A stretch of DNA of 34,692 nucleotides from positions 1 through 34,692 of the forward strand of contig JAVWLC010000001.1 of the NCBI GenBank assembly GCA_036638175.1. The letters are read 5' to 3'. Source of the DNA: Raoultibacter sp. Its GTDB lineage: Bacteria > Actinomycetota > Coriobacteriia > Coriobacteriales > Eggerthellaceae. Position 1 is the first letter of the stretch. The number at the start of each line of letters is the position of its first letter. The notes under the pieces were generated by a model, which saw only the letters and a list, made by a program, of their open reading frames with translations, made no database searches and had not been told where the DNA came from. Below, one piece after another: positions 9,757 through 34,692 of the stretch. The position numbers and the translations under genes are program-made.

Positions 9757-10604
9757 TGTTAGAGATCTATGTACCATCAGGCAGATCTGATGTGCGTATC
9801 AAACGAATCACGGCAGACGCCATGCCTAGTCTGTATAACGCCCAGAAGTATAAACTGCCTGACCTATTTGTCGATACGTTAGCGCGATTCACCAACGTGA
9901 ACGTCCGTGAGATGTACCTCGAAGACTTCCGTTATATGATTGCGATGTTCGACAAAGATAGTTGGCCTCAGTCGCACCGTATGTATGAATGGCGTTGTAA
10001 CGAACCATTCTATGTTGATATGCACGGTGAGCGACACTATGAGCGACCAACAGGACGCAAGTATGTGAAAGTACCGTGCGGCGTTCTGAACACCGAAGAG
10101 GTCATGCGTCATCGCGTTATCTCTCATGAATGGTGCAAGCTGCCTGACGGTCTGCGCCATCCAACTGTACAGCGCTGGATTGAAGCCGAACTCCTTGCCG
10201 AAACATTCGACAGGACTATGGCAATGAATGCGATGTATATCGATAGTGACTTGCCTCTTGAGCAAACGCTGTTATACGTGAACCCAATGGAAATCATTAA
10301 CGCTGGGCATTACGCATTTACTAGCTGCGAACTGGAGACCAAGCACGTATGCAACCGTTGTTTCCGCACGTACACGTACACAACGCCGATTGACCTACTG
10401 GGTTATTTCCGTGTGTACTCTGATACATCTATGATGAATATGACGCTCGACCTTGCGTCTGCTAAGAGTATCTATGTGCCTGACGATGTGTCGATTAAGA
10501 AACTCCTGTACTGGCATAGCTCGTATGTTCAAGATAAGAACAAGGCCGAAGAGGCTAGAGCCATTGCTAGGTCTGCTGGTAGAGGTGGTCGTGGAGGTCG
10601 TTAA
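9756..10604 (+). CDS. Second tail/hub assembly chaperone, paralog of upstream gene
   Basis: 282 aa; VPSGR, WRCNEP (vs WRCNKP), CNRC; TGATG overlap; precedes tape-measure-like gene. Confidence 0.6.
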   Translation: MLEIYVPSGRSDVRIKRITADAMPSLYNAQKYKLPDLFVDTLARFTNVNVREMYLEDFRYMIAMFDKDSWPQSHRMYEWRCNEPFYVDMHGERHYERPTGRKYVKVPCGVLNTEEVMRHRVISHEWCKLPDGLRHPTVQRWIEAELLAETFDRTMAMNAMYIDSDLPLEQTLLYVNPMEIINAGHYAFTSCELETKHVCNRCFRTYTYTTPIDLLGYFRVYSDTSMMNMTLDLASAKSIYVPDDVSIKKLLYWHSSYVQDKNKAEEARAIARSAGRGGRGGR

Positions 10605-13276
10605 TGGCTAAACCAAAAGAGAAGGAACTCTCGGCACTCGAACTAATGATCGAACATGCCGAGAACATGAGCAGTTCCGTTGTTGGTATGCCTCGTTCGC
10701 GTAAAGCATCCAATCAACCTGACTTCTCTTTCAATCTTAACGCTCAAGATTTAGAAGATAGTGAGGAAGAGTATTACGTTGGCCCTGGCTCCAGAGCGAA
10801 GAATCGTGCAGCCAGAGAACGTCGTGAAGCTGCTAAGGCACGTCAGATTGATGTTAACGTCAAGACAACGCAGCCAACAGCAATCGCATCTCAACCCAAT
10901 CCACGCCAAGTCGAATCAGCGCTTGAAGACCTATTCATTGCTGGTGAGAGGTCTGGTGATGATATCGTTACTGCAATTCGTGACGGTAATGCAGTCAGTC
11001 AGAAGACGCAAGAGGCTCTCGAGGATTGGTTGAAGTGGGAGAAGTCCGAAGCGTTTAAGCAGAAGAACAAAGCGAAGTCAGACCCACACGGACAGCAACC
11101 TGGTGCAGGTGGGGAAGGCACTGGTCCCAATACTGGTCCTGCTAATGACGACGGTGGTGGCGATAACTTCAATGACGACGGTAGTGGCGATGAACGTCGA
11201 AGACGCCGCACTGGTGAGTCTCGTCGTCGTGGTCGTAGGTATGGTCGCAATAGCGGCAACCGTCGTGGTCCTGGTCGCAATCTTCCTCGTCCTAAACGCT
11301 TTCGTGGTAAGCTTGGCGCGATTCTTGGGATAGCTGCTGCTGGCGCTGCTGCCATAGGTGGTGGTCTGTGGTTGAAGAATCGTGCGAACGAAGAATTTGA
11401 AGAAGACAACGCAGCAAACGAAGGTGCTGGTGCTCCTGAACAACCGAAGCAAGTAGAACAGCAACAACCTGTCCGTACTGCTGACGTTACTAAAGCTGCG
11501 GAGACACTGCCAAGCGAAGCGCCTAAAGCACCATCTGCCGCACAGGATGCTGCTGTTGCTGGCACAAGTATGCTGCTCATGGGAGCGTCTAAGCGAATCC
11601 CTATCATCGGTCCTGCGTTAGGCAATGGCTTGATGTATGCCAATGATACGCAGCATATTGATGCAGATGAAACACTCACCGAAGATGAAAAAGCGCGAGA
11701 GAAGAAGAAAGCTGCTGGTTCGGCAATTGGAGGCACTGCTGCTGGTACTGGTGGTGCTGTCGCTGGAGCTTGGATTGGCGGAGCACTTGGCTCTGTGGTG
11801 CCTGTTGTTGGTACTGCTGCTGGTGCTGCACTTGGTGGTCTTCTTGGCGGTATCTTGGGTGATTACTTCGGTAGCTCTATAGGCGAGTACGTTGCTGATA
11901 AGATCACGGATGAGTCAGATAACATGCTGGCAGAAGGTGAGAAAGATCGCAAAGAGAAGATGGAAGAATACAACGAAGCGGCTGACGAGAACAAAGATAA
12001 GTCCAAGTTCCCGCAGCCGCTTATCATGCCTTTCAACATAGGTGGCATGGGTGGCGGTCTTCCAGGTTCTGGTGCTGGTACCTATCAAGGTCCAATGCGA
12101 GCACAGCCTTCTCGGCGTATGGACAGCAAACAAGTAACTGATATCGCCCAGAAAGCAATTGCTGAGGGAGGTCTTGGTTCTGTTAGTGAGCAGTTCGAGT
12201 CTGGTGGCCGTGGTGTTGGTACCGTATCTACAGGACAGGGTGATGCTGGTGGTGTGTCTTACGGTAAGCACCAGCTCGCTACGAACAACGGCAGTATGAT
12301 GAACTTCCTGAACAGCCCTGAAGGTAAGCCATTCTTGCAGCGCTTTGGTGGCCTTGCTCCTGGTACAGCGCAGTTCAACTCCGTGTATAAAGACGTTGCT
12401 AACACTCAAGGTGCTGACTTCGATAAAGCGCAGTCTGACTATATCACTCGTACACACTACGCACCAATGGTAGCGAAACTCCAGAACGATGTTGGCGTTG
12501 ACCTGTCTTCTCGCGGTTCTGGCGTGAAAGAGATGATCTACTCCACTGCTGTGCAATATGGTGCAGGTAGTTCTGTAGTTGCTAACGCTCTCAAAGGTAA
12601 AGACGTGAACGCCATGACAGACCCTGAGCTTATTCAAGCAGTACAGGACTACAAGGCAGCAACAACCGATCGTTACTTCAAATCGAGTTCAGCGCAGACC
12701 CAGCAATCAGTTGCTATGCGAGCGCAGAATGAGAAGGACGTGTTACTCAAGGTCCATGAAGCGGAACAGAAGAAGAAAGCTGTAAATACTCCTAAGCCTG
12801 TAGATGCAGAAGCGGAACACGATGCTCGTATCGCTGAGAAGTTTCCTGGTCTAAAGAAAGGGACAGGTCCGCAGCATGATGGTCCTGTTGATGAGAACTT
12901 GAAGAATCTACCAGACCTTACAGGTAGAGGTCCAGTACGACCCAAGTCATCTCCTGAGGAATATGAGAAGCAACTGCAAGAACGTGTTGCTCTCGCGGCT
13001 CCTGATGTTAATCGCATTCAACCTGTTGCTCAACCAGAAGCGCCTATCGAACGTCAACCTCTCGTAACAGAAGGTGATGTTGCTCGACAGGAAGCACCGC
13101 CAGTAACACCTGTTGTTGCTCCTGCTGCCCAAGCTCCTTCTGGTGGTGCTGTATCACGCCCTGCTGCTAGTGGTGGCAATAATAGCGCTAACCCAAGTGC
13201 TGGACATTCACTCGATAACATCCCTGTGTTCTTGGATGACCCGATGCTGAATGCTATCACTACTGGTTATATGTGA
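10604..13276 (+). CDS. Tape-measure-like protein with VgrG3-type peptidoglycan hydrolase domain
   Basis: 890 aa; Gly-zipper hydrophobic segments; LGSVSEQFESGG...GDAGGVSYGKHQL...YSTAVQYG lysozyme-like motif set. Confidence 0.75.
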   Translation: MAKPKEKELSALELMIEHAENMSSSVVGMPRSRKASNQPDFSFNLNAQDLEDSEEEYYVGPGSRAKNRAARERREAAKARQIDVNVKTTQPTAIASQPNPRQVESALEDLFIAGERSGDDIVTAIRDGNAVSQKTQEALEDWLKWEKSEAFKQKNKAKSDPHGQQPGAGGEGTGPNTGPANDDGGGDNFNDDGSGDERRRRRTGESRRRGRRYGRNSGNRRGPGRNLPRPKRFRGKLGAILGIAAAGAAAIGGGLWLKNRANEEFEEDNAANEGAGAPEQPKQVEQQQPVRTADVTKAAETLPSEAPKAPSAAQDAAVAGTSMLLMGASKRIPIIGPALGNGLMYANDTQHIDADETLTEDEKAREKKKAAGSAIGGTAAGTGGAVAGAWIGGALGSVVPVVGTAAGAALGGLLGGILGDYFGSSIGEYVADKITDESDNMLAEGEKDRKEKMEEYNEAADENKDKSKFPQPLIMPFNIGGMGGGLPGSGAGTYQGPMRAQPSRRMDSKQVTDIAQKAIAEGGLGSVSEQFESGGRGVGTVSTGQGDAGGVSYGKHQLATNNGSMMNFLNSPEGKPFLQRFGGLAPGTAQFNSVYKDVANTQGADFDKAQSDYITRTHYAPMVAKLQNDVGVDLSSRGSGVKEMIYSTAVQYGAGSSVVANALKGKDVNAMTDPELIQAVQDYKAATTDRYFKSSSAQTQQSVAMRAQNEKDVLLKVHEAEQKKKAVNTPKPVDAEAEHDARIAEKFPGLKKGTGPQHDGPVDENLKNLPDLTGRGPVRPKSSPEEYEKQLQERVALAAPDVNRIQPVAQPEAPIERQPLVTEGDVARQEAPPVTPVVAPAAQAPSGGAVSRPAASGGNNSANPSAGHSLDNIPVFLDDPMLNAITTGYM

Positions 13277-21047: not shown

Positions 21048-22805
21048 ATGAACATCATTCAAAAGCAGAATCAGGTCATTCGTGATCTAAGCATTATTCC
21101 GACTACAGTCCAGCGAGTCGGCGACGCCTTCATTGGCTTGAGTTCGAATAACGTTGGCTATGCGTGGCGTCAGGGTGAAATCTTTGACTTCGCTGCTGGT
21201 ATGTCCATCAGTATGCCTCACGTTAATGCCAACACTATTCAGCGTATCAGCGGTATGAATTACGCTGGCGTTAACCCTGAAGGTAACACCGTATTCATGT
21301 CCAGCACCAGTGCTGTGCATGTTGCTCTTGGTGAGCGTCAGGAACAACGTTACATTGCTACCGATAAAGACGTCCAACAAGTTACTGCTGACTTTGCTGC
21401 TGCTCTTTCAAACAGCGGTCAGTCTCTGGCTATTGCGTCTTTATCTGCGGCACGTACTTACGGCACGTATCAAGGTAAGAAAGTTGTTATCGATGATGCT
21501 AACGACGAGTACGATCTGGAACTAGAGAAGGGTGATAAGCTGAGCCTTGTCTACCTGAACCGCGACCGCTATGAGCTGCACCTGAAAGATGAACCGAAGA
21601 TTGTGTTCATCGTTCGTGGTCACTTACGTGCTGCTAACATCATCGGCCAGACAGTGTTTGATAAGCCGTTCGGCGTTGTCGGTTCTGATAAGAACAACAC
21701 GTTCATGCCAGTCGGTGTTGCTGGGCGTAACATTGCGACACCGATGCAGATCAAGAAAGATACTGTTATCTATACGTTCCGTAAGAAACACTATCTGCCG
21801 CAGAACCTCGTTGTTCCTCTTGAGAAGATGCTGGACGGCGCCGAGCTTAACAAGCTACTGACAGCACTCAAGCCAGTTAAAGAGAACAAGGCTATCACTA
21901 AAGGTAAGCTGGTGGGAGTTAAGCTGCCACCACTTCCAGGCGGACAGAAGATTAAGTCTGAAAGCCCAATCAAACGTGATAGCAAAGTTGTGTACGGCGC
22001 ATTCTTCCCTGTGTCTGCTGCCCAGCCTAATCGTAGCCGCATTATCTTTGGCGATAACATCAAAGACGTACAGAAGAAAGCTGTTGAAGCTATCGGACGT
22101 ATGGCAGTGCCTACCGATTACTATCTGTTTAGCACGTTCTCCACTGACGAGCTTTACGATCTGGCTAAAGGTGGCTCTGTTGTTATTCGTGCGACCGGTG
22201 TGTTGCAACACCAGTACCCTAAAGCCAAGCATATCAGCATGGGCTACATGGATAATCAAGTCGAGTACCGCGACCCTGTTAAAGTCGATGTGCCTGAACT
22301 GAAAATCCCAGCTATTAGCAGTAACAACGCTAAGATCGTGAAAGAGGTGCTGCGTCTTCTTGCTGAGGGCTACTTCAATACTGGTCTACATCTGTCAGGA
22401 CAACAACCTACAGGCGCTCTGAGTTTTGATGGTCTTATGGACCCTCGTGCTCGTGACCAGTTGACTGGTATCGCTCGCCGCATCGCAATGTATCTGAAAC
22501 AGAATGGTGCTGTCCTTCCTAAGGGTAGTATCAAACTGGCGTTCGGCAAACAACGCGCTGAAATCAGATTCAACCTGCCTAAGCTGTCGGGTGCTGCTCT
22601 GCAATCTGTAAATAAGATTCAGACAGACGAGCCAACATTGAACGCTCCTATTTATGCGACCATCAAGCCTAAACAGCCGACAGTCGAAATCACAGCATTC
22701 AACCGTCACACTGGTTACGTTACCGTTCGTGCCCAGCGTGGTCCTGAGCTATATTCTGAGCCATACGAAACGTACTACAATAATGTGGAACGAAAAGTAT
22801 TTTAA
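21048..22805 (+). CDS. Large basic protein, probable processed internal head protein
   Basis: 585 aa; N-terminal ~135 aa carries several SxS motifs, followed by a domain shared with 7868..8545. Confidence 0.6.
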   Translation: MNIIQKQNQVIRDLSIIPTTVQRVGDAFIGLSSNNVGYAWRQGEIFDFAAGMSISMPHVNANTIQRISGMNYAGVNPEGNTVFMSSTSAVHVALGERQEQRYIATDKDVQQVTADFAAALSNSGQSLAIASLSAARTYGTYQGKKVVIDDANDEYDLELEKGDKLSLVYLNRDRYELHLKDEPKIVFIVRGHLRAANIIGQTVFDKPFGVVGSDKNNTFMPVGVAGRNIATPMQIKKDTVIYTFRKKHYLPQNLVVPLEKMLDGAELNKLLTALKPVKENKAITKGKLVGVKLPPLPGGQKIKSESPIKRDSKVVYGAFFPVSAAQPNRSRIIFGDNIKDVQKKAVEAIGRMAVPTDYYLFSTFSTDELYDLAKGGSVVIRATGVLQHQYPKAKHISMGYMDNQVEYRDPVKVDVPELKIPAISSNNAKIVKEVLRLLAEGYFNTGLHLSGQQPTGALSFDGLMDPRARDQLTGIARRIAMYLKQNGAVLPKGSIKLAFGKQRAEIRFNLPKLSGAALQSVNKIQTDEPTLNAPIYATIKPKQPTVEITAFNRHTGYVTVRAQRGPELYSEPYETYYNNVERKVF

Positions 22806-23899: not shown

Positions 23900-24190
23900 A
23901 TGGGACAGAAAGCTATTCGTCTAGGTACTGATTTGTCTACTGGCCATAGCGGCTACTTCCCTGTTGTACCTGCACAAGCATCAGGCAATGTGTTCGTCAA
24001 CGGTAAAGGGAGCGTTAGACAAGGCGATGCGTATCAACCTCACTGGAAGCCCAAGAAGCCACCTCATGTAGGTAAAGCTACGTCAGGCTCAAGTGTGCGT
24101 GTTAATGGCAAGCCTGCTCAACGTGCTGGTGACGGTAATACTTGTGGCGACACTGCATCTAACGGTAGTTCTAATGTGAGATTTGGCTAA
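23900..24190 (+). CDS. PAAR-domain spike tip protein
   Basis: 96 aa; AIRLG, VFVNGKGSVRQGD, VRVNGKPAQRAGD..TCG, GSSNVRFG; His/Cys metal ligands. Confidence 0.92.
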   Translation: MGQKAIRLGTDLSTGHSGYFPVVPAQASGNVFVNGKGSVRQGDAYQPHWKPKKPPHVGKATSGSSVRVNGKPAQRAGDGNTCGDTASNGSSNVRFG

Positions 24191-30690: not shown

Positions 30691-33018
30691 ATGGCCACTG
30701 AATCTATCTACGTTAACGCACTGCGTTTAACGCCTCAGGGAGAACAGGCCGTTGCGAACGCGAACGCTGGTGGGTTGGCTATTCAACCTGTAGCGTTCAA
30801 AGCAGGTGACTTCATTGGCTCTAACCCGTCTGAGGTTCCAGAGCAGTTACTTGGCAACGAGCTTGCGTCGGGCGCATTGTCATATGTTCAGGTACTTACC
30901 GAGAACAGTGCCCGCTTCATCTTTGATATTCAAGTCAAATACGTCGCAGGCGAAGCGCTGAAACGTGTTGGTGAAATACTGATTATGCTCTCTGACAATA
31001 GGCCGTTTGGTCATGTTGTTCTGCAAGAGCCAATCATTGCCGTACCCAACTCTATCAGTCGCGTGAGTTTGCTCGTACATATCCAGCAGGACATCCAAAA
31101 GATTCTTGCTGTTAAGATGGCGGACTACACATCAATCCCGAGTGTTGCTACTCTGGAAAATCTGCCTAGTCTTAAAGACAACGTGTTCAATGCTGTGTCA
31201 GTTCTCGACCTGCATGTTAACTCTGATGGTTCTCGCTCACCTGGTGCTGCGTATCGTTATGGGGCTGGCTCATACTATTGGGCGTTCAGCGAACATGACC
31301 GTATCTATAGCGGCACTATTGGTAGTGGCTTCATCAACGCGAACACGTTTAAAATCAATTCTCTCACTGGTATGAAAGAAGGTGAGATTGTCCTTGTACA
31401 AACAGTAGCTGGGCCTGGTGCTGGCGCGTGTCGTCATTTCAAATACACCGGCGGACAGTTCGTTAACATGGACAGTCCAATCGCATTTATCAGTGCGCAG
31501 ACAAACATCGCTATCTGGCGTCGTATCACTAACCCGACTACACCGAGCGTTGGTCTGCCGTGGCCTGTTGATAACGATGTGCCTGATACGTGGGCGTTAA
31601 TGCGCGGCAAAGACAATAAACCTTATTGGGGCCCTGTCAATAGCCAGCGTCAAACGACTGCGAGCCTGTTCGTTCCACCGGGCAAGATGCTTTTCAGTTC
31701 TGTTGTGACTACTGCAACTCCTGATAAGCTACGCTATCAACTGACCGAGATTTTGGATAGCTCTACCGACTTGTTCGTTGGTACGTCGAGCGTTCTCCAG
31801 CCTCGTACAGCGTATTCAGTTCAGGAAGATCAGCTCCTGCTTTCATCTTATCCTGAACAGCAGATGACGCTTGACCTGAGACAGTTCCGTATCGAGCCAT
31901 CTCAAGGCCACGTTGTTCTGTTTGAAACGTATGACGGTGTTGGTGACGGACAGACTACTCAATACACTTTGGGTAATCGTCCTGTAGAAAGCGCCGACAT
32001 GGTATTCTGTGTCGTAGGAAACACTTGGCAGCCTAGTACGGTCTATAAGATCAGTAACGGCAACAAGTTGCAGATGACGCAGCCCATTCCGTCTGGTCAG
32101 AAATACACTTTCTATGTTGCTCGCTATGAAGAACGTGCTGGGTGGTCTACTCGTCTGCGTGTTAGTCAGTATCGAATGCCTTATGATGCTGATACATTTA
32201 TTCTGCCGACTAGCCCACTGAATAAAGCGCACTGCGTTGTCGCTGTTGGTGGCTTGGCAGTCCACACGTCAGACTTCACGGTTGCTGGTAACTCGTTAAA
32301 AACAACATCGCCTATTCCGCACGATACGCTTGTCGAAGTAACAGTATTTGAGAATATCAAAGCTGTAGGTTCGAAAGACAGTTCTGTTGACGGTGTTATC
32401 ATCGACGTTATTCCTACGCCGAAGGGTTACATGTTCAAGCGTCAAGGGCTTGCTCCGATTGAAGTACCTATCGCCACACCTGAGATTGTTAGTGGTGAAG
32501 GTATTGTGATTGAAGGGCAGTGGCCTGAGATTAAGATCAGCAATACTCAGGCACTAGCCGAAGAAGCTGACCCGAAGAACATGTTCAACATCCAGCAGAC
32601 TCAAGTTGACTCGGAAGAAGTTGTTATCCAGCAGCGTATTGAGTTCAGCAAGGCTGTTATGCTTACGTGTACAGCAGACTTTCAGTGCCAGCTTGGTCCT
32701 GGATTTGCGTCCACCAGCGGTAAAGAACATATCGAATATGTTCTGTCGTTTAAAGGCCCTGGTGTAAGCGAAGCTGAATATGGACGTGGGCTTAAAGGCA
32801 CAGGCGCAGCGGGTTTCAACGTGGTACAATCGGACAACGCTCCAGAGATTATCGCGTACTCGAACGTTAGCCTGACGCAGATGTTTGTTGTGCTGAAAGA
32901 GAACCAGCCTCAGGGATATATCGATATCGTTGCTAAGGTGCGTATCACCGATGCGCAGATCACTAGCTACGGATCGAAGCTGATTGGTAACTTGTGCATT
33001 AAGGTCGAACCGAAATGA
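30691..33018 (+). CDS. Tail collar / fibre-attachment protein with internal beta repeats
   Basis: 775 aa; N-terminal LTPQG...FKAGD collar-type motif; three GDGQTTQYTL...LQP..Y-type repeats; AAGGAG RBS. Confidence 0.65.
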   Translation: MATESIYVNALRLTPQGEQAVANANAGGLAIQPVAFKAGDFIGSNPSEVPEQLLGNELASGALSYVQVLTENSARFIFDIQVKYVAGEALKRVGEILIMLSDNRPFGHVVLQEPIIAVPNSISRVSLLVHIQQDIQKILAVKMADYTSIPSVATLENLPSLKDNVFNAVSVLDLHVNSDGSRSPGAAYRYGAGSYYWAFSEHDRIYSGTIGSGFINANTFKINSLTGMKEGEIVLVQTVAGPGAGACRHFKYTGGQFVNMDSPIAFISAQTNIAIWRRITNPTTPSVGLPWPVDNDVPDTWALMRGKDNKPYWGPVNSQRQTTASLFVPPGKMLFSSVVTTATPDKLRYQLTEILDSSTDLFVGTSSVLQPRTAYSVQEDQLLLSSYPEQQMTLDLRQFRIEPSQGHVVLFETYDGVGDGQTTQYTLGNRPVESADMVFCVVGNTWQPSTVYKISNGNKLQMTQPIPSGQKYTFYVARYEERAGWSTRLRVSQYRMPYDADTFILPTSPLNKAHCVVAVGGLAVHTSDFTVAGNSLKTTSPIPHDTLVEVTVFENIKAVGSKDSSVDGVIIDVIPTPKGYMFKRQGLAPIEVPIATPEIVSGEGIVIEGQWPEIKISNTQALAEEADPKNMFNIQQTQVDSEEVVIQQRIEFSKAVMLTCTADFQCQLGPGFASTSGKEHIEYVLSFKGPGVSEAEYGRGLKGTGAAGFNVVQSDNAPEIIAYSNVSLTQMFVVLKENQPQGYIDIVAKVRITDAQITSYGSKLIGNLCIKVEPK

Positions 33019-34451
33019 CTCAGCTAAGACTCTCGCAAATCGAAACAACGCCTAACGATGAAGGTAAATCCGCGATAGGCGTTGACGGTGCTTTGGTATT
33101 TGAAAACACCGATGTGTTGACAACAACACAAATCGCAAGCGTGAAGTTTGACAGCAAAAACGGTGTACTGGTATTCGTTAAGCAGAATGGGAAAGTAGTT
33201 AACGTTCCCGGACTGCCGACTATCTCAATGTTTGGTGAAGGAAGACCTGGGCGTCGAGGCGCTCCAGGTGCTCCTGGTAGACCTGGACGTGATGGTCGTG
33301 ATGGTGAGACAGGTAAGCAAGGGTGTGAAGGACTTCCCGGTGCTAAGGGTCAGACTGGTAAAGCAGGTGACCCTGGGCGCGATGGTGATACTGGTCCTCA
33401 AGGTGATACCGGCCCAATCGGTCCAGTAGGTCCTACGGGTCCAATCGGTCCTGATGGTCCTCAAGGTATCATCGGCCCACGCGGTAATGACGGCCCAAGT
33501 TGCGTTGCTGGTGCTACAGGCCCAACAGGCCCAGCGCCTATTCCAACTGCTGTATTGTCGTCTACACAGCCCACTGCCAGCAACGTGTTCGTCTGGTTAT
33601 TTCCGACAAATAACGTGACTCCTGCTCCACCTCTGCCTGTGCTTACACCTCTCGCTGCATCTGTATCTAACTTGTACATGGTTGGTACTCGTGCAGTTCA
33701 GGGTTCTGACGTGTTCACATCGCTTGCTTATCTGCCTGTGAATGCTCGTGGTGGTGTCGGTCCGTATAAGTACAAATGGACTATCACTACCACAGAAGGC
33801 GTAACCCTTGATGCTGTCGAAACTTCGACGTGTATCGTTAACTTCTACTTACGTTTAGGCTTAGGTGCTGACCGTATCATCAAAGGCACCATTAGCTGCG
33901 TAGTCACTGATATGGGACAGACGTCGCGTCCGACTGTCACTGTCAAATCGCAGTTGACTGTTGTAGCACGTAACCCAACCAACAAACAAACGTCAGGCTG
34001 TATTGTTTACGGCTCTACCGTTGATACTCTCATGGGACCTGTTGCTGTCGAGAAACTTCAAGAGTGTGACTGCATTCTTGGCTACTCGAATCAGCCTAAA
34101 GACTTCCGTAAATGGTCAAGCCCTTCTATTAAAGGCAAGCCTGTATATGCTACAGTTCGTGCAGTACGTCATGGACAGGAAGATCATTACTATGTGATCA
34201 ACGGACAGAAGCTGACGCATGAGCATCCTGTGCTCATCTACGATACGGACTGGCGATACGTACCAGCGCGTGACGTGCAATCAGGACAAACAGTTCTTGG
34301 GCGAAAAGGCCCGATTGTCGTTTCTGAGTGCTATCGAGTCGATGCGCAGGTGAATACCGTTGATATTGATGTTGAACCGTATGACACTTACTTCGTGGGT
34401 GACGTGCTGGTGCATAACACTGATATCGTTGCACGTGCGGAGAAGAACTAA
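33015..34451 (+). CDS. Collagen-like fibre protein with C-terminal Hint (intein-like) domain
   Basis: 478 aa; 29 contiguous Gly-X-Y triplets; C329 ... T401xxH404 ... H467-N468-T469. Confidence 0.85.
   Translation: MTQLRLSQIETTPNDEGKSAIGVDGALVFENTDVLTTTQIASVKFDSKNGVLVFVKQNGKVVNVPGLPTISMFGEGRPGRRGAPGAPGRPGRDGRDGETGKQGCEGLPGAKGQTGKAGDPGRDGDTGPQGDTGPIGPVGPTGPIGPDGPQGIIGPRGNDGPSCVAGATGPTGPAPIPTAVLSSTQPTASNVFVWLFPTNNVTPAPPLPVLTPLAASVSNLYMVGTRAVQGSDVFTSLAYLPVNARGGVGPYKYKWTITTTEGVTLDAVETSTCIVNFYLRLGLGADRIIKGTISCVVTDMGQTSRPTVTVKSQLTVVARNPTNKQTSGCIVYGSTVDTLMGPVAVEKLQECDCILGYSNQPKDFRKWSSPSIKGKPVYATVRAVRHGQEDHYYVINGQKLTHEHPVLIYDTDWRYVPARDVQSGQTVLGRKGPIVVSECYRVDAQVNTVDIDVEPYDTYFVGDVLVHNTDIVARAEKN
33240..33536 (+). 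repeat. Collagen Gly-X-Y repeat coding region
   Basis: GGN at every third codon: 29 triplets, one CVA interruption, then 3 more. Confidence 0.9.
33999..34418 (+). other. Hint/mini-intein-like domain (140 aa, no endonuclease)
   Basis: Block A CIVYGSTVDT, block B LTHEHPV, block F VDIDVEPYDTYFVG, block G VLVHN followed by T. Confidence 0.85.
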
Positions 34452-34692
34452 TGCCATTAATCAAAGTTAGTACAGGTATGATTAAGGCGGGTACTACCTC
34501 GACGCCAACTCCTGTGCGAGCATCTGGCGGTACGCTGGTAACTAATCCTGCTGAGGAGAACGTACCGTCAGAACTCACTTCTGATACATCGTTTGACGCT
34601 ACTGCCGGTGTGCTTACACTTCGCTTTGCTAACGGTCAGTCAGTACAAGTAAGGGGCTTCCCTACTGCGTCTGATATACCTGAGGGCAGACA
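34451..34692 (+). CDS. Partial second fibre protein, N-terminus paralogous to 33015..34451 (truncated by window end)
   Basis: Not in ORF track; TAATG overlap; open to window end: MPLIKVSTGMI...FDATAGVLTLRFANGQSVQVRGFPTASDIPEGR vs FDSKNGVLVFVKQNGKVVNVPGLPTISMFGEGR. Confidence 0.8.
   Translation, partial: MPLIKVSTGMIKAGTTSTPTPVRASGGTLVTNPAEENVPSELTSDTSFDATAGVLTLRFANGQSVQVRGFPTASDIPEGR

What the first reader, a model, noticed from the sequence alone, without database searches (positions are those of the whole stretch)
33015..34451. Collagen-like virion fibre ending in a complete Hint/intein-like autoprocessing domain
Seen: N-terminal anchor, 29 Gly-X-Y triplets, a Pro-rich linker, a beta/Ig-like domain, then a 140-aa domain (33999-34418). 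It starts G|CIVYGSTV, has TxxH (THEH) and ends VLVHN|T, with only a 10-aa tail TDIVARAEKN. Established: C1, block-B TxxH and terminal HN plus a +1 S/T/C nucleophile are the catalytic set of inteins and A-type bacterial intein-like (BIL) domains; classical inteins mostly sit inside nucleotide/DNA enzymes. Inference: this is a domesticated Hint used in virion maturation. It could act as a self-removing folding/trimerisation chaperone, splice on the short tail, or use the thioester to ligate the fibre to another protein or small molecule (Hedgehog-like), e.g. to build whisker-like fibres.
Basis: partly seen in the sequence, partly recalled or inferred. Interest (0 to 1): 0.85.

Follow-up and report, generated by a model that had tools for sequence, protein, structure and literature searches.

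The report
Lysine-tailed Hint on phage collagen fibre
A collagen-like tail-fibre gene of an Erwinia-type giant phage ends in an intein-like (Hint) domain plus a ten-residue tail whose lysine is kept in all close relatives and almost all distant ones, so the domain likely cuts itself out and joins the tail to the fibre through that lysine, while related phages make the same fibre without it.

Summary
Observation confirmed. ORF 33015-34451 encodes an anchor, a collagen rod, an Ig-like domain, a 140-aa Hint (fold Z 18 to Hedgehog Hint and a bacterial BIL) and a 10-aa tail. C1, TxxH and HN are invariant in 38 of 38 Hint-bearing orthologues. GenBank already notes the intein domain (Y3 gp110, NCTB gp136); I found no paper on its function.

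(1) The Hint is optional: orthologues in cultured, hairy Salmondvirus phages stop at the junction, and PaBG and Lu11 lack it. It is therefore not an essential chaperone or whisker builder. (2) The +1 Thr is not the family constant; a tail lysine is. It is present in 38 of 38 orthologues and in 90 of 94 short tails of distant relatives (shuffle mean 57.5, max 69), and 7 tails are a single Lys.

Best reading (about 45%): type-A-BIL-like self-excision with lysine-side-chain (isopeptide) ligation, as in Tetrahymena BIL2. Rivals: plain cleavage, or Thr/alpha-amine splicing. No chemistry was shown. The scan noted this family and the lysine idea before on other DNA; the idea came from there and was re-tested here.

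The parts
33015..33239 (+). N-terminal anchor (aa 1-75); its last part is shared with the three other collagen chains of the cluster
   Evidence: beta strands at low confidence in the model
33240..33536 (+). Collagen-like rod: 29 Gly-X-Y triplets (aa 76-162), one Cys-for-Gly triplet, then three more; a Cys at rod position 29, as in the paralogues
   Evidence: Pfam Collagen E 6.3e-15
33537..33644 (+). Post-collagen motif (also at the ends of Hint-less paralogues; candidate trimer nucleus, inferred) and Pro-rich linker, aa 175-210
33645..33977 (+). Ig/PKD-like beta-sandwich, aa 211-321; Hint-less Salmondvirus-type orthologues stop one residue after it, on a Lys
   Evidence: (Z 8-9)
33999..34418 (+). 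Hint domain, aa 329-468, 140 aa, no room for an endonuclease: C329, T401, H404, D450/D452, H467, N468
34419..34448 (+). 10-aa C-terminal tail, T469 to N478, with its single lysine K477 (34443-34445)
34439..34442 (+). GGAG Shine-Dalgarno-like site of the next gene, inside tail codons A475-E476; it explains the conservation of those two residues
   Evidence: codons GCG GAG identical in 16 of 16 Y3-group sequences printed
34451..34690 (+). Start of the next collagen chain (Y3 gp109 orthologue, Hint-less, 34-triplet rod), cut by the window end; possible partner chain

Best explanation
The fibre protein carries a C-terminal Hint domain with intact catalytic residues that likely excises itself and likely joins the short tail to the fibre through the side-chain amine of the tail lysine (K477). 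Inferred steps: (1) C329 forms a thioester with G328, helped by T401/H404; (2) the K477 amine, tethered near the active site because the two ends of a Hint fold lie together, attacks it and makes an irreversible isopeptide bond; (3) H467/N468 cyclise and release the 15.8-kDa Hint, leaving a 34.5-kDa fibre capped with the decapeptide. The lysine would replace the Cys/Ser/Thr of inteins and drive clean removal. The module is an accessory, gained or lost at fibre C-termini, not needed to build the fibre. What the cap or the transient domain gives the phage is not resolved; a folding or timing aid that must be removed cleanly is my guess. Shown here: sequence, fold match, conservation, optional presence, lysine statistics. 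Not shown: any reaction.
For: Catalytic set invariant in 39 of 39 collagen-Hint proteins (38 orthologues plus P0172). Hint identity to 20 relatives is 66%, like the rest of the protein (63-74%). Tail Lys in 38 of 38 orthologues; K at +9 in 36 of 36 tails of the Y3-group register. Among the best 150 of 13,012 profile hits, 94 end in HN plus a 1-20 aa tail: 90 hold a Lys, 83 exactly one, 7 are a lone Lys; none starts with Cys or Thr, 7 with Ser; the next commonest residue (Glu) is in 40. Controls: within-tail shuffle mean 57.5, max 69 of 20,000; exactly-one-Lys shuffle mean 32, max 51; 66 real phage gene ends predict 26.6; equally long stretch before C1, 17 of 89. Where no stop or ribosome site can act (more than 20 aa follow), Lys sits exactly at +1 in 47 of 71 proteins against a 4.2% background. 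Tails differ in sequence and Lys position across deep branches. Precedent: Tetrahymena BIL2 forms a Lys isopeptide (PMC8616854 section 2.4) and is a top fold match.
Against: No activity measured. The model gives the tail pLDDT below 50, so reach of K477 to C329 was not tested. This subgroup has Thr at +1 (33 of 38), which allows ordinary splicing. K477 is at +9, while first-Lys positions in the family cluster at +1 to +6 (81 of 90). Inside the Y3 group D470 and E476 are as invariant as K477, and the tail overlaps a ribosome-binding site. All 9 Hint-less rows end in a Lys, which this reading does not predict. Type A BILs mostly give cleavage products (PMC4031507; PMC7664689). The 150 hits are related, not independent; 12 lacked a terminal HN, 3 had no tail and 41 had long tails, and were left out of the 94. 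Four of 94 tails have no Lys.
Confidence: 0.45

Rival explanations
1. Plain self-cleavage: the thioester hydrolyses and Asn cyclises, freeing the fibre with a G328 end; the tail is discarded and its lysine only helps catalysis or is incidental.
For: Cleavage dominates in type A BILs. Hint-less orthologues stop within five residues of the junction, so they resemble the cleaved product. Tails share no sequence besides Lys.
Against: Does not explain 90 of 94 tails with Lys, lone-Lys tails, or Lys at +1 in 47 of 71 internal cases. A catalytic base would be expected at a fixed position, not at +1 to +15.
Confidence: 0.2
2. Backbone splicing: the tail is joined linearly, through T469 (class 1 route) or through the freed alpha-amine (BIL route), and what matters is a free lysine near the mature fibre's end.
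For: This protein has every class 1 residue, Thr +1 included (33 of 38 orthologues). All 9 Hint-less rows (7 clusters at 90% identity, down to 57% over the searched region) end in NPK, the same kind of end; only 6 of 66 control genes end in Lys and 9 of 16 Lys-majority columns are invariant in that clade. The BIL aminolysis route is described.
Against: +1 is A, V or M in 4 of 38 orthologues, and C/T in 0 of 94 distant tails. It gives no reason for Lys to sit exactly at +1 ahead of long C-flanks. The Hint-less clade may be one event. Hint-less PaBG gp241 and Lu11 gp238 do not end in Lys, though their C-terminal parts differ.
Confidence: 0.18
3. Ligation in trans: the thioester is captured by a lysine of another fibre chain, another virion protein or a host surface protein, cross-linking fibre tips or anchoring the virion.
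For: BIL2 conjugates to other substrates such as Ras. With Thr +1 and a Lys, one tail offers two attachment points. NCTB has three Hints in one fibre cluster, one stand-alone with a Lys in its 3-aa tail.
Against: A tethered own lysine should out-compete outside acceptors. Completed reactions leave no cross-link unless both amines are used. JA29 keeps a terminal Lys with no Hint of this family in its genome.
Confidence: 0.1
4. Essential intramolecular folding or trimerisation chaperone (S74-like), or a domain retained uncut, or the builder of the tail whiskers.
For: C-terminal self-removing chaperones (S74) are known on phage fibres (PMC7824862). Long retention of the domain suggests a benefit.
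Against: Cultured hairy JA phages, PaBG and Lu11 make the orthologous chain with no Hint. The three paralogous collagen chains lack it. Hairy CBB has no Hint. Invariant catalytic residues argue against an uncut domain.
Confidence: 0.07

Closest known systems
Type A bacterial intein-like (BIL) domains, e.g. C. thermocellum BIL, PDB 2LWY
   Same: Hint fold (Z 18.1, rmsd 1.7, 129 aligned), about 140 aa, Cys1, block-B TxxH, terminal His-Asn, no endonuclease, variable +1 residue.
   Different: Sits at the very end of a phage collagen fibre with only a 10-aa C-flank; the C-flank carries a near-obligate lysine, which the review passages I read do not mention for BILs; this subgroup mostly has Thr +1.
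Tetrahymena BUBL1 BIL2 (PDB 6Y75/6TMM; PMC8616854)
   Same: Hint fold (Z 17.2, rmsd 2.2, 139 aligned); splicing by a C-flank lysine to give an isopeptide is the chemistry proposed here.
   Different: BIL2 lies between ubiquitin-like domains in a ciliate, is Zn-activated and has biochemical support; here the flanks are a fibre and a decapeptide, and the chemistry is only inferred; 16-17% identity.
Class 1 mini-inteins (e.g. Mtu RecA, Ssp DnaB)
   Same: Fold (2IMZ Z 18.0); this very sequence has C1, TxxH, block-F Asp, HN and Thr +1.
   Different: Not inside a conserved enzyme motif; the +1 nucleophile is not conserved; alleles without the domain simply stop rather than carrying joined flanks.
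Hedgehog autoprocessing domain (PDB 1AT0)
   Same: Top fold match (Z 18.4, tied with 2LWY); Gly-Cys junction; C-terminal position.
   Different: Ends in His-Asn with a 10-aa tail; no room for the sterol-recognition region (recalled, about 60 aa).
Erwinia phage Y3 gp110 (YP_009794284) and phage NCTB gp136 (SBV38305)
   Same: Direct orthologues (77% for Y3), annotated 'putative phage tail protein, contains intein domain'.
   Different: Annotation only; no function or lysine feature noted in the records. The Y3 paper (Buttimer 2018) and the NCTB paper were seen only as citations.
Peptidase S74 intramolecular chaperones of phage fibres
   Same: C-terminal, self-detaching module on a fibre (works alike at that level).
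   Different: Different fold; Ser-Lys chemistry and an oligomeric folding role; the Hint here is optional.

Membership tests
Type A BIL | Hint fold | tested here: met
   Z 18.1, rmsd 1.7, 129 aligned to 2LWY; E 6.4e-5
Type A BIL | Cys1, block-B Thr/His and C-terminal His-Asn | tested here: met
   39 of 39 collagen-Hint proteins
Type A BIL | Short domain with no homing endonuclease | tested here: met
   140 aa, aligned end to end with minimal Hints
Type A BIL | +1 nucleophile absent or not conserved | tested here: inconclusive
   Not conserved in the family (C/T 0, S 7 of 94), but this protein and 33 of 38 orthologues have Thr
Type A BIL | Cleavage and some splicing activity | not testable with these tools
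   needs expression and MS
Class 1 intein | Conserved Cys/Ser/Thr at +1 | tested here: not met
   A, V or M in 4 of 38 orthologues with intact catalytic residues; 87 of 94 distant tails lack it
Class 1 intein | Insertion in a conserved host protein, with empty alleles that join both flanks | tested here: not met
   Hint-less alleles end at NPK, without the 10-aa tail
Hedgehog Hog domain | Sterol-recognition region after the Hint (recalled feature) | tested here: not met
   only 10 residues follow N468
PT-HINT of polymorphic toxins (PF07591) | Score at the gathering cut-off and a toxin domain C-terminal to the Hint | tested here: not met
   25.9 bits against 27.7; no domain follows
BUBL-type BIL2 | Flanking ubiquitin-like domains | tested here: not met
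   flanks are an Ig-like domain and a decapeptide
BUBL-type BIL2 | Isopeptide bond through a C-flank lysine | not testable with these tools
   a conserved lysine is present; bond not shown
S74 chaperone | S74 fold with a Ser-Lys dyad | tested here: not met
   the domain is positively assigned to the Hint fold and starts with Cys

The most novel reading that the evidence does not exclude
A large, mostly uncharacterised branch of Hint domains on phage fibres and Ig/FN3/PKD-type proteins uses a lysine in place of the intein +1 nucleophile, giving ATP-free isopeptide ligation during virion maturation. In this Erwinia/Dickeya jumbo-phage group it caps, and might cross-link, the tip of a collagen fibre, and cultured phages with and without the module allow a direct test.
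Probability: 0.45. Interest if true: 0.8.

Novelty: new variant of a known kind. Interest (0 to 1): 0.58.

Why it matters
If the lysine is the nucleophile, this is a splicing chemistry that I found described only for a ciliate domain, here on phage structural proteins and in a wide family (13,012 representatives match the profile at E 0.001, a count that includes other Hint types). It would add a fibre-maturation route beside S74 chaperones and offer a small, ATP-free isopeptide-ligation tool. This member is unusually testable: close relatives are cultured phages, the tail has one lysine, the diagnostic peptides are simple, and natural Hint-less orthologues are the control. The domain's presence is already annotated, which limits the surprise.

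Tried and rejected
NCBIfam gave no Hint/intein match for the domain alone. A viral-contig scan with the NCTB Hint found nothing. The complex predictor was not available, so trimer formation of aa 175-478 is untested; this is no evidence either way. Trees did not settle gain against loss of the Hint: the fibre tree without its rod needs 2 label changes, with long outgroup branches; the 1,500-aa tail-protein tree (8 rows) puts the JA phages between NCTB and the rest; Hints of orthologous fibres fall in three weakly supported places. I therefore do not claim a direction. My first control for C-terminal Lys (237 ORF ends) included non-genes and was replaced by 66 gene ends. The ribosome-site explanation of the lysine was tested: it accounts for A475-E476 in the Y3 group, but the signal stays in tails without SD-like dipeptides (57 of 61) and in internal Hints. 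No second Hint of this family in the window's assembly, which is fragmented. Literature: 10 searches listed no paper on Hint/BIL processing of phage fibres or on lysine-tailed phage Hints; subscription papers (Y3, NCTB, Amitai 2003, Dassa 2004, Aranko 2013, the primary BIL2 paper) were not seen, and no supplements were read, so a mention there cannot be excluded. Rejected: whisker building, Hedgehog-type sterol transfer, polymorphic-toxin Hint, mobile classical intein.
Full report
Observation. The ORF at 33015-34451 gives a 478-aa protein. The last 150 aa match Pfam PT-HINT at E 1.3e-5, just under its cut-off, and the C. thermocellum BIL structure 2LWY at E 6.4e-5. An AlphaFold model from a 22-row alignment is mostly confident over aa 211-320 and 331-470 and unsure over the rod and the tail. 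It aligns to Hedgehog Hint 1AT0 (Z 18.4, rmsd 1.8, 127 aligned), 2LWY (18.1, 1.7, 129), Mtu RecA intein (18.0, 1.4, 123) and Tetrahymena BIL2 (17.2, 2.2, 139); these top rows are close to tied. Aa 211-321 give Ig/PKD-like matches at Z 8-9.

Context. The window is the tail module of a Y3-like jumbo myophage: sheath, baseplate wedge and tail genes lie upstream. Of 60 phage records matching the protein, 48 are Erwinia and 8 Dickeya phages, with the best at 76-80% identity. The orthologues Y3 gp110 and NCTB gp136 are already annotated as containing an intein domain. The gene opens a cluster of four collagen chains with rods of 29(+), 34, 23 and 24-25 triplets and a Cys at rod position 29; only this chain has a Hint in the Y3 group. 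The window's assembly holds no second Hint of this family, but it is fragmented. That the protein is in the virion is inferred from position and database labels.

Conservation. C329, T401, H404, H467 and N468 are present in 39 of 39 collagen-plus-Hint proteins (38 orthologues and the unrelated P0172); D450 in 37 and D452 in 38. The Hint is as conserved as the rest of the protein: 66% mean identity to 20 relatives, against 63% for the anchor and 74% for the Ig domain. The +1 residue is T in 33, A in 2, and S, V and M in one each of 38.

The Hint is optional. Six Dickeya records (JA11, JA13, JA29, JA33) match the N-terminal part but not the Hint. The JA29 and JA11 genes encode 324 aa and stop at NPK, right after the Ig domain; seven database clusters share this form. 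A six-frame search of five genomes found no Hint of this family in JA29 and only a 31-position weak match elsewhere in JA11. PaBG gp241 (29 triplets) and Lu11 gp238 occupy the same slot with other C-terminal parts and no Hint. Conversely, NCTB has a Hint on its gp132, whose Y3 counterpart has none, and a stand-alone degenerate Hint. The JA phages are described as hairy Myoviridae (PMC6143709, passages), and hairy CBB has no Hint (PMC5259590, passages). So the domain is not needed for fibre assembly or for whiskers. Whether JA lost it or others gained it is unresolved.

The tail lysine. Earlier scan notes on other genomes proposed a conserved tail lysine; I tested it here. A profile of 18 Hints found 13,012 representatives at E 0.001; I examined the best 150. 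In 94 the last Hint ends in HN with a tail of 1-20 aa; 41 have longer tails, 12 lack the terminal HN and 3 have none. Of the 94, 90 hold a Lys, 83 exactly one, and 7 are a lone Lys. None starts with Cys or Thr, 7 with Ser. Shuffling residues among tails gives 57.5 (max 69 in 20,000), and 32 (max 51) for exactly one; 66 real phage gene ends predict 26.6; stretches of equal length before C1 hold Lys in 17 of 89. Among single-Hint proteins it is 77 of 78. Where more than 20 residues follow, Lys is exactly at +1 in 47 of 71 proteins, against 4.2% background. A tree of 94 Hints shows unrelated tails with Lys on many deep branches, though rows are not independent. N-flanks with a Pfam match (50 scanned, most without one) are FN3, PKD, Ig, PASTA, Calx-beta, LCCL and collagen types. 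In the window's group all 38 tails hold a Lys and K477 is invariant in 36 of 36 tails of that register. Caveat: the tail overlaps the next gene's ribosome site. Codons GCG GAG are identical in 16 of 16 sequences printed, which explains A475-E476; the Lys codon varies (AAA 14, AAG 2) and the residue after it is free.

Mechanism. From established Hint chemistry (PMC4031507, passages), C329 forms a thioester with G328 and N468 cyclises to cut the C-terminal bond. Type A BILs mostly cleave and can ligate through the freed amine. Tetrahymena BIL2 instead makes an isopeptide through a lysine of its C-flank (PMC8616854, section 2.4 read in full). A lysine that is nearly obligatory, single, and most often placed where inteins keep their nucleophile fits that chemistry best. 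I therefore propose self-excision with K477 resolving the thioester, leaving a 34.5-kDa capped fibre and a free 15.8-kDa Hint from a 50.4-kDa precursor, at about 45%. Against it: nothing was measured; K477 is farther out than most; Thr +1 permits ordinary splicing in this subgroup; and all 9 Hint-less rows end in Lys, where 6 of 66 control genes do and about half of the columns are invariant in that clade. That last point favours, modestly, a need for a free terminal lysine (18%). Plain cleavage gets 20%, ligation in trans 10%, an essential chaperone or uncut domain 7%. The benefit to the phage is open; long retention despite viable Hint-less forms suggests there is one.

Comparison and novelty. 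It works like a type A BIL and meets the sequence and fold criteria, with the +1 criterion mixed. It fails membership of class 1 inteins, Hedgehog, PT-HINT toxins and S74 chaperones on tested features. Ten paper searches listed nothing on Hint processing of phage fibres; of other papers opened I saw passages only (PMC3556154, PMC7412058, PMC7824862), and their intein passages concern terminase and ribonucleotide reductase. The Y3 and NCTB papers and the primary BIL papers were seen only as citations, and no supplements were read. The scan found the same family (e1-4038776) and the lysine idea (e1-5673612, e1-10003085) before on other DNA; those notes are leads, not support. Verdict: a real feature, a new variant of a known kind, with a sharp, cheap test; interest 0.58.

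Noticed in passing
window 33240-33536 and 34451-34690; L001, L002, L003, L004, L006, L008, L069: Four collagen chains keep fixed rod lengths (29 plus an interrupted extension that brings it to about 34; 34; 23; 24-25) and mostly a Cys at rod position 29 from Y3 to NCTB, with the same lengths in PaBG; the matched lengths suggest mixed trimers. The JA29 Hint-less chain lacks that Cys.
   Followed up: partly
L006 8989-9963, L007 8989-9963; P0023, P0173-P0178: All Hint-less orthologues of the Salmondvirus type end in NPK, while that position varies in Hint-bearing ones; unexplained.
   Followed up: partly
L002 12387-12848 (NCTB gp135): Stand-alone, degenerate Hint with a poor N-terminal motif but intact HN and a 3-aa tail starting with Lys, directly behind the fibre gene.
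   Followed up: no
P0024, P0032, P0040, P0045, P0145: Proteins with 3-6 tandem Hints joined by 1-5-residue linkers that mostly start with Lys; lysine splicing would leave a short isopeptide-linked chain.
   Followed up: partly
L037-L048, L054, L056-L061: A viral/metagenomic family with an internal Hint followed by KGG and a roughly 95-aa FN3-like domain: a natural long-C-flank test case for Lys +1 splicing.
   Followed up: partly
window 10604-13276: 890-aa protein with a VgrG3-like C-terminal domain (Pfam PF21277, E 1e-63) and a glycine-zipper-like region; likely a tail-associated cell-wall enzyme (inferred).
   Followed up: no
window 21048-22805: 585-aa protein with a KMPT-N domain (PF20294, E 2.7e-17), followed by about 1.1 kb with no + strand ORF of 80 aa or more before the PAAR-type gene at 23900.
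   Followed up: no
L008 12505-14526 and 17451-17657; L003 11619-12845: Genes annotated 'large intein domain protein' or 'contains intein domain' in Yoloswag and Afa-NA1 gave no Hint match with my profile; the labels look transferred from NCTB.
   Followed up: partly
G000 contigs C1, C123, C67: The jumbo phage lies in pieces inside a 519-contig, 2.8-Mb assembly, so it is probably co-assembled rather than integrated (inferred).
   Followed up: no
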